Shown in pieces: positions 15,001-18,000 of a DNA stretch of 29,019 nt. Every line of letters starts with the position of its first letter. Position 1 is the stretch's first letter. Source of the stretch: a virus (Duplodnaviria > Heunggongvirae > Uroviricota > Caudoviricetes); the IMG/VR virus record IMGVR_UViG_2579778660_000004, positions 1 through 29,019 of that record, one strand, 5' to 3'. The position numbers were made by a program.

Positions 15001-18000
15001 TCAATTTGTTTATCACGAATGATATCTTGACGTAGTTCAGCAAAATGCAGCTCAGTATCAGCAACTAACAGCTCCTCTCTGGATAAAGGAGTTGGGTATT
15101 TTTCTGAGAAGGGGCTATTGTCCTTTTTCTGATTTGTGAAAATTGTTTGTAATTTTGCTACGTCTTCATCGGTGATTCTATAAATAGAAAGTAATCGATT
15201 CCCGCTAAAAATTAAACCTTTCCAGAAATCGTCGATTCTATCTTTTAGGTCGGGATTATGCTGAACTACACTATTTACACGTTCAATAAAAAGGGGTAAT
15301 CCTTGGGCCGTTACACCCAGTGATGAACCAAGAAGCTTACGGGTGTTGCGCCAGCCAAAGCGTGAATTGATGTTTTTTACTGTTTGCTCAAGCATTAACA
15401 CTTCCTTAATTTTTCCTTAACAATTTAGGGTGCTAAACTTCTTTGCGCAGTTTACACAAAAAAATAGTGCGTACGCAAAAACTATCTAACATGATGAGCT
15501 TTAACCGGGAAATTTGTATATGTTGTGAGCATAAAGTTGGCTGAGAAATCTAAAACGGGTCGAATGACTACGGGTGCTTGAGGCTATCTGCCTCGGGCAT
15601 GCCACCAAAGGCCGATAGAGAAAAGTCCCAGTTAACATTACGCGTCCTGCAAGACGCTTAACATTAATCTGAGGATATATCTATGACTTGCACCTATAGG
15701 TTACCTCTTACGTGCCGAAAGGCAAGGAGAAGTGGGCTATGAAGCAGCAAAAGGCGATGTTACTCGCTCTAATCGTCATCTGTTTAACCGTCATAGTGAC
15801 GGTACTGGTAACGTGGAAAGACCTCTGCGAGGTGCGAATCCGAACCGGTCAGACGGAGATCGCTGTCTTCACAGTTTACGAACCTGAGGAGTAAGAGACC
15901 CGGCGGGGAGAAATCCCATAAGCGCTAACTTAAGGGTTGAACCATCTGAAGAATGCGACGCCTCGGTGCCTCGTTAAGACGATGCCTCGCGTTCTTCAAT
16001 TGCGTTTTGTAGGCTGTCAGGGATACTGTCCCACGAATGGCCACCTGTAAGCTCCAGATGACCATTTTTGTTATTCTCCACAACGAGTTAGTTCTTCTTT
16101 TCGGATCCGGCACTTCTGGGGGGGAAATCCAGCGATGGCTGGATTATGTCGTCAATTAAAAATGCGGCGAGTAGATTAGCAAATATCCACGCTTTCGCGA
16201 GTTCAGGTTCCTTTGCACGCAAAGCATCCAGGTGCAGCAAACTTTTGAGCCGCTTAAAAGCCAGTTCAATTTGCCATCGCAGACGGTAACAATCAGCCAC
16301 TTGCTCTGCTGAATATTCATCTTCCGGTAATGATGTTAGCAATAGCACATGGCCCACTGCTTCCAGCGCTTCCGCCTGAACTACTCGTCCTTTTCGACGA
16401 TTCTCGCTGAGCAGTCGGGTTTTACTGATTAATGCTTTTTCGGGAGGAAGTGATACGGCAATGAGACGTGCCGGAAAGGGAGCTCCGGCTTTTTTATTAC
16501 CTGAATTGCCTATCATTACAGTGGTTTCACCGTTCTTACCGCAATCCAGCCCGCGCAGAAAACCCATCATGTCAAAGCGCATTCCTTCTGCAGTTAACCA
16601 GCGCAATCCTCGCCAGTGAACCCGGACGATATAATCAGCTTCTCCAAAAGCAAGTGAGCGGATACATTCGGGACGCGAACCGAATCCCCGGTCAGCAATG
16701 CGTATCTCGTCTGCCGTTTGCGCAAATCGGTCCAGCCGTTCAGCGTCTCTGCTGTCGGTTAGCTCAAAATCAGTGAACTGACAGGTATGAGGATCATATC
16801 CCATATGTAGTCGCCATTCAGCGCTGCCGCCCCCGGGCGCACTGATTGCTGTTCCATCGACAAGACGCAATCTCTTTCCGCTTGTACAACCCGTAACTGC
16901 GGCGCGTACAGCAAGTGTTTGTGCGGCAAGTATGCCAAACCAGTCGGCGGCATTCCGCAGCCGCTTCAGGAGAGCCACGTCAGATAATGTTGCAACGTCA
17001 TGGAGCTGAGCCCATGCAGTGACTTCACGTAATGACATCCCCCCGGGGCCGTAAGCCAGCCCCAGACGTAGCAGAGTTGCAGCATCACGAATTTCGCGGC
17101 GGCGGGTTAGAGCCCCGGCATTACGTGCCGAAGTATCCAGTTCTTCGGGCTTACCAATATGGGCCAGAATTGCTGACCAGTTATCGTGAGAGTAATTCAT
17201 CGGCACGTTAAATCATATCAGGCGTAATACCACAACCCTTAAGTTAGCGCTTATGGGAGAAATCCCCGTCACCTCTGATGTGTCAGGCATCCTCAATGCA
17301 CCCGATTTTGCCCCTCTCGATATTTTGTTTTTAATTAATAAATATTATTAAACAGAATGTACAATGTCATAATGTTCTCATTGTTGTTTTTTATATCACG
17401 CGCAGTTTACCTTGTATTCTTAATTTATATGTTTTATATATTGTTGTGTTTTCTTGGTTATTGCCTCATGTGAAATATTAATTAGAATCCTTTGGGCTTG
17501 ATTTGCGCGCAGGGAGAAGATGGATGGCCCCCGTAAAGGGGAACGCTATTTACCTGGAAGGATTCTAATGAAGAGTTTTGATAAATTGCGTGAAGCTTTG
17601 AGTGAAAATGGACTCTATGCGGTGCGTATCGAAAATGGAGAAATAATTTACACAACTGTAATCCCGGAAGATCATATAATTTTATCTGTTGAAGCTTTTA
17701 TCGAATACATTGAAAGGATTGGTTTTAAGGTCATACGGGATTGAGTTATAATCTATAAGCCAGCCTGAACAACTGGCAACCTACAGCGCCATTGGAGAAT
17801 GCAATGGCGCATATACAACTGGTCAAACAAACATCTTCTGGATTACTTCTCCCGGCGACACCGGAGAGTTGTGATTTCCTGCATCAAATAAAGATAGGTG
17901 AGTGGATACACGCTGATTTTAAGCGCGTTCGTAACTACGCATTTCACAAGCGTTTTTTCAAACTCCTGCAACTCGGATTTGATTACTGGACTCCGGTCGG

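What the first reader, a model, noticed from the sequence alone, without database searches (positions are those of the whole stretch)
15907..17265. Intact IS186 with 10-bp target duplication in a G-rich/C-rich target
Perfect 23-bp terminal inverted repeats and direct repeats GGAGAAATCC on both sides indicate a simple, probably recent transposition with no later rearrangement. The reconstructed target (GGCGGG-GAGAAATCC-CCGTC) fits the known IS186 preference for G-run/N/C-run sites. The element separates the defence-cassette/hok island from the nin genes and could supply promoter activity or homology for rearrangement.
Basis: partly seen in the sequence, partly recalled or inferred. Interest (0 to 1): 0.3.

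Follow-up and report, generated by a model that had tools for sequence, protein, structure and literature searches.

The report
IS186 inserted in prophage hok hairpin
An ordinary, intact copy of the E. coli jumping gene IS186 has landed in its preferred target, which here is a small hairpin just after a prophage hok toxin gene, the same spot it occupies at hokC and hokE in E. coli K-12, so it probably cuts the toxin mRNA off from its 3' control element.

Summary
Window 15917-17255 is a complete 1339-bp IS186 (PGAP calls it IS421). It has perfect 23-bp inverted repeats and an intact 370-aa DDE transposase on the minus strand. It differs at 2 nt from K-12 IS186A. It is flanked by the 10-bp duplication GGAGAAATCC.

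The restored target GGGG-AGAAAT-CCCC is the published IS186 consensus and the only such site in the window. A 99.9% identical prophage (E. coli CFIAFB20190172) and phage Rac-SA53 carry the uninterrupted site, so this was a simple transposition.

It is the GNRA-capped stem-loop 8 nt after the stop codon of a hok/sok toxin-antitoxin locus. The IS starts 22 nt after that stop. It separates hok from the 3' fbi element, which pairs with the mRNA 5' end. This is the same position, spacing and orientation as hokC(gef)::IS186A in K-12.

Sampled genomes show independent insertions at this hairpin in at least six hok backgrounds, in both orientations. Hok-IS186 junctions occur in about 820 and 938 of 5426 complete E. 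coli genomes, one count per orientation. This is a known element at a known hot spot, so interest is low. Functional disarming of hok is inferred, not shown.

The parts
15917..17255 (-). Complete IS186 (IS421 in PGAP naming), 1339 bp
   Evidence: 1337/1339 identical to K-12 IS186A. Megablast finds 99.9% copies in 2221 of 5426 E. coli genomes.
15917..15939 (.). Terminal inverted repeat at the transposase 3' side
   Evidence: 23/23 complementary to 17233-17255
17233..17255 (.). Terminal inverted repeat at the transposase 5' side
16088..17200 (-). insL-type DDE transposase, 370 aa, intact
   Evidence: PF01609 93.6 bits. NF033592 IS4 family 131 bits, cut-off 115. 368/370 identical to WP_001300563.1-type copy; differences T278A and A281V.
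15907..15916 (.). Target-site duplication, left copy GGAGAAATCC
17256..17265 (.). Target-site duplication, right copy GGAGAAATCC
15572..15744 (+). hok mRNA 5' leader with the tac element (GGGUGCUUGAGG at 15572) and the Sok-complementary region
   Evidence: Rfam RF01794 sok, 91.7 bits, gathering score 59, E=1e-20, full model
15739..15894 (+). hok toxin CDS (51 aa), intact
   Evidence: PF01848 HOK_GEF 71.8 bits. Same protein accession WP_001774828.1 in the occupied and empty prophages.
15902..15916 (+). 5' arm plus GAAA loop of the hok 3'-UTR stem-loop GGCGGGGA-GAAA-UCCCCGUC, which is the IS186 target
   Evidence: The hairpin folds at -15.8 kcal/mol in the IS-less reconstruction. Only about -8.8 kcal/mol of residual structure remains at the junction.
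17263..17270 (+). 3' arm of the same stem-loop, now 1.35 kb away
17291..17303 (+). fbi (fold-back inhibition) element CCTCAATGCACCC, complementary to the mRNA 5' end and now detached from hok
   Evidence: The MFE fold of the reconstructed mRNA pairs nt 1-11 with this segment. Duplex energy is -21.5 kcal/mol, reached by 7 of 2000 shuffles.
16470..16499 (+). Terminator-like hairpin plus T-run inside the IS, on the hok-sense strand; a possible end of the chimeric hok transcript
   Evidence: Consensus scan only, and the count is not above the shuffle expectation. Weak.

Best explanation
A canonical IS186 transposed once, by ordinary cut-and-paste with a staggered 10-bp target cut. It landed in the only GGGG(N6)CCCC site of this Rac-type LT-II prophage. 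That site is the GNRA-capped G4/C4 stem-loop that starts 8 nt after the hok stop codon. The IS begins 22 nt after the stop, inside the loop. The hok ORF, its leader and the Sok region are untouched. The hairpin is split, and the 3' fbi element that normally pairs with the mRNA 5' end (tac) is moved 1.35 kb away behind a convergently oriented transposase gene. Inferred consequence, by analogy with plasmid R1 hok/sok and K-12 hokC/gef: the hok transcript now ends inside the IS and cannot form the closed, inert, long-lived tac-fbi conformation. It folds constitutively like the 3'-processed form and is bound and destroyed through Sok. The locus would then lose the stable mRNA reservoir needed for post-segregational or stress-triggered killing, while the toxin ORF stays intact. 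hok 3' hairpins act as tolerated landing pads for IS186, which would explain why the same event recurs. Shown: the anatomy, the empty site, and the recurrence. Inferred: the RNA and phenotypic consequence.
For: IS identity and intactness. Target duplication and consensus target. There is no other GGGG(N6/7)CCCC site in the window, with 0.19 and 0.17 expected by chance. The published consensus is GGGG(N6/N7)CCCC, with only 54 sites in K-12 and use in either orientation (PMC5009759). Empty site: a 99.9% twin prophage with identical flanks and phage Rac-SA53. hok/sok anatomy: Rfam sok 91.7 bits, HOK_GEF, tac-fbi closing helix in the reconstructed mRNA. In the IS-interrupted transcript the 5' end pairs locally, nt 3-13 with nt 19-29, as in a processed-like truncation. 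K-12 hokC::IS186A sits at the identical distance (22 nt) and orientation with its own duplication GGAGTGATCC. hokE::IS186B sits 21 nt after the stop in the opposite orientation. PMC3562002 states that IS186 downstream of gef/hokC is thought to disrupt the fbi and that gef mRNA ends inside the IS. Recurrence: at least six hok backgrounds, both orientations, locus-specific duplications including one of 11 bp. Junction counts: 820 and 938 of 5426 genomes, one per orientation.
Against: No transcript or phenotype data exist for this locus. The RNA folds are MFE predictions. The literature cited says K-12 gef is still transcribed and regulated by its antisense RNA despite the IS, so 'disarmed' may be too strong. 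The junction counts are not corrected for shared ancestry; many hits are K-12-derived hokC copies. This IS copy carries two private non-synonymous changes whose effect on activity is unknown.
Confidence: 0.85

Rival explanations
1. The IS reached this locus by homologous recombination or gene conversion from another hok::IS186 allele in the cell (for example hokC::IS186 or a plasmid hok::IS186), not by transposition.
For: Hok loci with IS186 at the homologous position are common and about 89-96% similar to this one. The IS itself shows an excess of differences relative to its flanks: 3 of the 5 mismatches to STEC367 lie in the IS, which hints at exchange between IS copies.
Against: Both flanks are identical to the empty-site twin right up to the IS, with 1 mismatch in 1200 nt located 184 nt from the junction. 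The duplicated core GAAA is this locus's own loop, not GTGA, GTAA or GAGA of the other loci. No imported flank patch is present.
Confidence: 0.04
2. The main biological effect is on the prophage rather than on hok. The 1.3-kb IS lies in the rightward early operon, upstream of rem, DUF1367, DUF1364 and the Q-type antiterminator (18690-19232). It acts as a polar block or a new promoter, changing late-gene and toxin (epl-like, LT-II) expression or crippling induction.
For: Gene order follows the Rac-SA53 and STEC367 annotation. A terminator-like hairpin plus T-run lies on the + strand inside the IS at 16470-16499. No phage record among 79 carrying this hok family has the IS at the site. That is consistent with the IS accumulating in resident, possibly decaying, prophages.
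Against: No outward promoter-like site was found in the IS. The terminator count is not above the shuffle expectation. Antiterminated phage transcription may read through. It is unknown whether this region is transcribed from an upstream early promoter across the minus-strand cassette. This effect is not exclusive of the best explanation.
Confidence: 0.15
3. The insertion is selectively neutral and says nothing about hok. The hairpin happens to match the IS186 target, and non-coding sites are simply where insertions survive.
For: IS186C in K-12 sits in the nupC terminator hairpin GCCGGGGATAATTCCCCGG, an unrelated G4/C4 stem-loop. In mutation-accumulation lines the hottest sites are in fimA and menC, which would be purged in nature (PMC5009759).
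Against: This concerns the evolutionary cause only. It does not alter the anatomical fact that the fbi is detached. The very high occupancy of plasmid-borne hok sites, with only 13 empty places on plasmids against many occupied ones, is hard to judge without a phylogeny.
Confidence: 0.4

Closest known systems
hokC (gef)::IS186A of E. coli K-12 MG1655 (NC_000913.3 15387-16731)
   Same: The IS186 sequence is the same apart from 2 of 1339 nt. The IS starts 22 nt after the hok-family stop codon. The transposase converges on hok in the same orientation. The duplication is 10 bp, centred on a GNRA loop of a GGCGGGGA/UCCCCGCC stem. The reported effect is disruption of the fbi, with the transcript ending inside the IS (PMC3562002).
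   Different: hokC is a chromosomal core locus, whereas this hok is a hokD/hokW-type locus in a Rac-like LT-II prophage. The loop and duplication are GTGA/GGAGTGATCC there and GAAA/GGAGAAATCC here, so the events are independent.
hokE::IS186B of E. coli K-12 (NC_000913.3 608007-609351)
   Same: The same stem-loop class (UGCGGGGA-GUAA-UCCCCGCA), 21 nt after the stop, with a 10-bp duplication.
   Different: Opposite IS orientation. The hok family member is divergent.
IS186 hot spots defined by the GGGG(N6/N7)CCCC consensus (Lee et al. 2016, PMC5009759). The lon-promoter hot spot of E. coli B (SaiSree et al. 2001) was not read here; it is known only from its title and from citations seen.
   Same: The palindromic G4/C4 target with a 6-nt core, and insertion in either orientation.
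   Different: Those papers, as far as read here, do not discuss hok hairpins. The lon insertion inactivates a promoter, whereas this one cuts a 3' UTR.
Escherichia phage Rac-SA53 (KU052037.1), LT-II / pertussis-like-toxin prophage
   Same: Same prophage type and gene order: mok/hok, rem, DUF1367, ybcO, q, epl-like toxin. The flanks are 95.7% identical.
   Different: It has the uninterrupted hok 3' hairpin and carries an IS1 elsewhere instead.

Membership tests
IS186 (IS4 family insertion sequence) | Near-identity of the whole element to the reference IS186 of E. coli K-12 | tested here: met
   1337/1339 nt identical to IS186A, with no indels. An element whose transposase PGAP names IS421 (plasmid copy L006) shows the identical pair of differences from the window, so it is identical to IS186A.
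IS186 (IS4 family insertion sequence) | Perfect 23-bp terminal inverted repeats CATAAGCGCTAACTTAAGGGTTG | tested here: met
   23/23
IS186 (IS4 family insertion sequence) | Single uninterrupted DDE transposase ORF of about 370 aa of the IS4 family | tested here: met
   370-aa ORF without stops. PF01609, 2-200/200 of the profile. NF033592, 131 bits, above the cut-off of 115.
IS186 (IS4 family insertion sequence) | Direct target duplication of variable length (about 10-12 bp as conventionally counted) | tested here: met
   GGAGAAATCC on both sides. Readable as 10 or 12 bp because of end ambiguity.
IS186 (IS4 family insertion sequence) | Target matches GGGG(N6/N7)CCCC | tested here: met
   The empty site is GGGG-AGAAAT-CCCC, both reconstructed and observed in NZ_CM143726.1. 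Consensus from PMC5009759.
IS186 (IS4 family insertion sequence) | Transposition competence of this copy | not testable with these tools
   The two private substitutions T278A and A281V lie upstream of the C-terminal CYRLRWQIELAFKRLK segment. Their effect is unknown.
[quoted passage not shown] | Hok/Gef toxin ORF | tested here: met
   PF01848, 71.8 bits
[quoted passage not shown] | Conserved leader / Sok antisense region | tested here: met
   RF01794, 91.7 bits, full length
[quoted passage not shown] | 3' fbi element contiguous with the mRNA and able to pair with the 5' tac | tested here: not met
   The complementarity exists (-21.5 kcal/mol), but in the window the fbi (17291-17303) is separated from hok by the IS. 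It is contiguous only in the empty-site relatives.

The most novel reading that the evidence does not exclude
The conserved G4-GNRA-C4 stem-loop of hok mRNAs may be the principal natural sink of IS186 in E. coli. A large share of genomes that carry IS186 have a copy there: 820 genomes for one orientation and 938 for the other, out of 2221 genomes with any IS186, and this is before counting hokE-type loci. The insertions arose repeatedly on chromosomes, prophages and plasmids. This could reflect selection to disarm hok addiction modules, or IS186 hitch-hiking on hok-bearing mobile elements, rather than target preference plus survivorship alone.
Probability: 0.3. Interest if true: 0.45.

Novelty: already known. 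Interest (0 to 1): 0.2.

Why it matters
For this window it settles the annotation in three ways. The element is a bona fide intact IS186. The prophage's hok/sok module is structurally interrupted in its 3' UTR and should not be scored as an intact addiction or defence module. The insertion is a convenient lineage marker: it is present in the STEC367/306-308 group and absent in CFIAFB20190172 and Rac-SA53. More generally, annotation that scores only the Hok ORF would overlook IS186 interruptions of the 3' UTR, which are frequent. There are about 1,750 genome-level junction hits against 4,724 uninterrupted hokD/C-type sites in 5,426 genomes. Surveys that count Hok ORFs as functional systems could therefore overestimate.

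Tried and rejected
1. Looked for other GGGG(N6/7)CCCC sites in the window, to ask whether the IS had a choice. There are none.
2. Looked for outward promoters in the IS ends. None were predicted.
3. Tested the 'defence cassette' label for ORFs 13245-15401 with Pfam, NCBIfam and PADLOC. There were no hits except a PDC-S54 match at E=0.0014, which I regard as noise.
4. Tried to read SaiSree et al. 2001 (PMC95536) and the supplement of Lee et al. 2016 for insertions at hok. Neither is held. Pedersen & Gerdes 1999 (multiple chromosomal hok genes; hokA/C/E inactivated by IS150/IS186) is cited from memory only.
5. Considered that the window is STEC367 itself. It is not identical: 5 mismatches and 1 indel in the first 26.3 kb.
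6. Considered recombinational acquisition. Rejected on flank identity and the locus-specific duplication.
7. Python access to several fetched loci failed because files were not synchronised. Junctions were read with DNA alignment instead.

Full report
**1. Observation**

Reading window 15800-17400 and checking by script shows the element as described.
- The 23-nt sequence CATAAGCGCTAACTTAAGGGTTG at 15917-15939 is exactly reverse-complementary to 17233-17255.
- The element between and including these repeats is 1339 bp.
- GGAGAAATCC occurs immediately outside both ends, at 15907-15916 and 17256-17265.
- The repeat finder reports the same feature as a 12-nt direct repeat (15906-15917 / 17255-17266). 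This is because the IS ends in C...G and the target has C and G runs.
- The duplication length is therefore inherently ambiguous: 10 or 12 bp, or a 6-bp core AGAAAT in the convention of Lee et al. 2016 (PMC5009759).
- The single long ORF (16088-17200, minus strand, 370 aa from ATG) is uninterrupted.

**2. Identity of the element**

- Megablast against 5,426 complete E. coli genomes finds 99.9% full-length copies in 2,221 genomes. They are annotated IS186B or IS421 family transposase.
- Against K-12 IS186A (NC_000913.3 15387-16731) the element has only two substitutions and no indel (16356 A/G, 16369 C/T).
- A plasmid copy whose transposase PGAP labels IS421 shows the identical pair of differences from the window. 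'IS421' and IS186 are therefore the same element here.
- Both substitutions are non-synonymous (T278A, A281V).
- The protein matches Pfam DDE_Tnp_1 over the whole profile (93.6 bits).
- It also matches the NCBIfam IS4-family equivalog above its cut-off (131 against 115 bits).
- All sequence-testable defining features of IS186 are met.

**3. Simple insertion, shown by empty sites**

- Joining the flanks with one duplication copy removed gives ...GAGACCCGGCGGGGAGAAATCCCCGTCACC....
- This 1200-nt joined sequence exists uninterrupted, with one mismatch, in E. coli CFIAFB20190172 (NZ_CM143726.1). It lies in the same prophage context.
- The named phage Rac-SA53 (KU052037.1) also has the uninterrupted site, with 95.7% identical flanks.
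- The occupied junction is present in STEC367 (99.9% over 3.4 kb) and STEC306/307/308.
- STEC308 has identical junctions. Its differences from the window cluster in a patch at 18106-18280, in the DUF1367 gene. This is one insertion event followed by downstream mosaic exchange.
- The restored site GGGG-AGAAAT-CCCC matches the experimentally derived IS186 target GGGG(N6/N7)CCCC. [quoted passage not shown]
- The occupied window contains no other such motif, with 0.19 and 0.17 expected by chance.

**4. What the target is**

- The IS begins 22 nt after the stop codon of a 51-aa Hok toxin gene (15739-15894; PF01848, 71.8 bits).
- Upstream, Rfam's sok model matches full length at 15572-15744 on the hok-sense strand (91.7 bits, gathering score 59). 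The match starts with GGGUGCUUGAGG.
- In the IS-less reconstruction, the MFE structure has three relevant features:
  - a GGCGGGGA-GAAA-UCCCCGUC stem-loop 8 nt after the stop codon, at -15.8 kcal/mol;
  - a closing helix between mRNA nt 1-11 and CCTCAATGCACCC (window 17291-17303);
  - together these give the tac-fbi architecture of hok mRNAs.
- The isolated duplex is -21.5 kcal/mol and is reached by 7 of 2000 shuffles.
- The IS therefore splits the loop of the 3'-UTR hairpin and moves the fbi 1.35 kb away.
- Transcripts ending at plausible points inside the IS fold their 5' end locally, nt 3-13 with nt 19-29. A processed-like truncation does the same.

**5. Comparison with K-12**

| Locus | Position relative to hok stop | Orientation relative to window | Hairpin | Duplication |
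|---|---|---|---|---|
| hokC::IS186A | 22 nt after stop | same (transposase converges on hok) | GGCGGGGA-GUGA-UCCCCGCC | GGAGTGATCC |
| hokE::IS186B | 21 nt after stop | opposite | UGCGGGGA-GUAA-UCCCCGCA | GGAGTAATCC |
| IS186C | in the nupC terminator hairpin GCCGGGGATAATTCCCCGG | not applicable | unrelated G4/C4 stem-loop | GGATAATTCC |

- PMC3562002 states that IS186 downstream of gef/hokC is thought to disrupt the fbi and normal processing. It also says the roughly 644-nt gef mRNA ends within the IS and remains under antisense control.
- From memory, Pedersen & Gerdes 1999 reported hokA, hokC and hokE of K-12 as inactivated by nearby IS150/IS186. That paper was not available here.

**6. 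Recurrence**

Twelve loci were aligned at both junctions. IS186 sits in the homologous stem-loop in at least six hok backgrounds:
- this prophage;
- a second prophage hokD type, with GGGAGAATCC in one orientation and an 11-bp GGGAGAATCCC in the other;
- a third prophage type, in both orientations;
- an 80-125-kb plasmid hok, with GGAGAGATCC in both orientations;
- hokC;
- hokE.

The duplicated cores follow each locus's own loop, so these are independent insertions.

Genome counts from junction and empty-site queries:

| Query | Result |
|---|---|
| 271 nt: 137 nt of hok 3' end plus 134 nt of IS, window orientation, at least 80% covered | 820 of 5,426 genomes |
| Same junction, opposite orientation | 938 of 5,426 genomes |
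| 177 nt: uninterrupted hok 3' end, hairpin and fbi | 3,458 genomes, 4,724 places, only 13 places on plasmids |

- These counts are not corrected for shared ancestry. By the spread sample, most window-orientation hits are hokC of K-12-like strains.
- hokE-type loci are too divergent to be counted.
- Among 79 phage-collection records carrying this hok family, none has the IS at the site.

**7. Mechanism and rivals**

- Best supported: a single ordinary transposition into a hot-spot target that is part of the hok mRNA 3' control region.
- The inferred effect is loss of the inert, fbi-locked mRNA pool, and hence of the killing-competent reservoir. Hok and Sok coding capacity stays intact.
- Recombinational import is disfavoured by flank identity and the locus-specific duplication.
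- A polar or regulatory effect on rem, DUF1367, DUF1364 and Q downstream is possible and not exclusive. Its only support is a terminator-like motif at 16470-16499, and no outward promoter motif was found.
- Whether the recurrence reflects selection or only target preference plus tolerance of non-coding insertions cannot be decided here.

**8. Novelty and score**

- The element, its target rule and its presence at hok loci are known.
- This is another instance, in a prophage hok. Classification: already known.
- Interest is 0.2.
- The population-scale association of IS186 with hok hairpins is the only part that might deserve a dedicated, phylogeny-aware analysis.

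Noticed in passing
window 1-29019, especially 19620-20838 and 22192-23332: The window is a Rac-type lambdoid prophage (intR, xisR, ralR, recT, recE, kilR, ydaT, ydaV). It carries two AB5-type toxin operons. One is a scabin/pertussis-like ADP-ribosyltransferase with a subtilase-type B subunit, just after the Q gene. The other is an LT-II-like enterotoxin A/B pair after the lysis genes. This is the arrangement annotated in phage Rac-SA53 (eplBA), and the abstract of PMC5917428 listed mentions it.
   Followed up: partly
Its function is unknown. It is conserved in the empty-site twin and in 2013C-3181.
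   Followed up: partly
window 16356, 16369, 16578 compared with L016: The window is not identical to its closest record, STEC367. There are 5 mismatches and 1 indel in the first 26.3 kb, and 3 of the 5 mismatches fall inside the 1.3-kb IS. Such an excess in a multicopy repeat suggests exchange between IS copies or repeat-related polishing errors in one of the assemblies.
   Followed up: partly
window about 23592; ORF 23417-24445: A 1-nt indel relative to STEC367 lies in the terminase small-subunit gene. The gene is an intact 342-aa ORF in the window, but PGAP annotates it as frameshifted in STEC367.
   Followed up: no
window 18106-18280: 32 of the 35 differences between the window and STEC308 over 3.4 kb cluster in 175 bp of the DUF1367 gene. 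This looks like a small mosaic recombination patch downstream of the shared IS insertion.
   Followed up: no
L006, L008, L013 (E. coli plasmids of 81-126 kb) and hits H154-H170: A plasmid-borne hokD-like locus carries IS186 in the same hairpin in both orientations, with the same duplication GGAGAGATCC. Uninterrupted versions of this site type are almost absent from plasmids: 13 of 4,724 empty places.
   Followed up: partly
window 12727-13248 and 18690-19232: There are two antiterminator-type genes in one prophage. A Phage_antitermQ protein lies upstream of the hok island. A DUF1133 protein, annotated q in Rac-SA53, lies downstream of the IS.
   Followed up: no
window 9466-10590: A continuous 374-aa ORF in the window corresponds to two partial pseudogene fragments in the PGAP annotation of both STEC367 and CFIAFB20190172. 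It is possibly a replication-initiation gene that PGAP models poorly.
   Followed up: no
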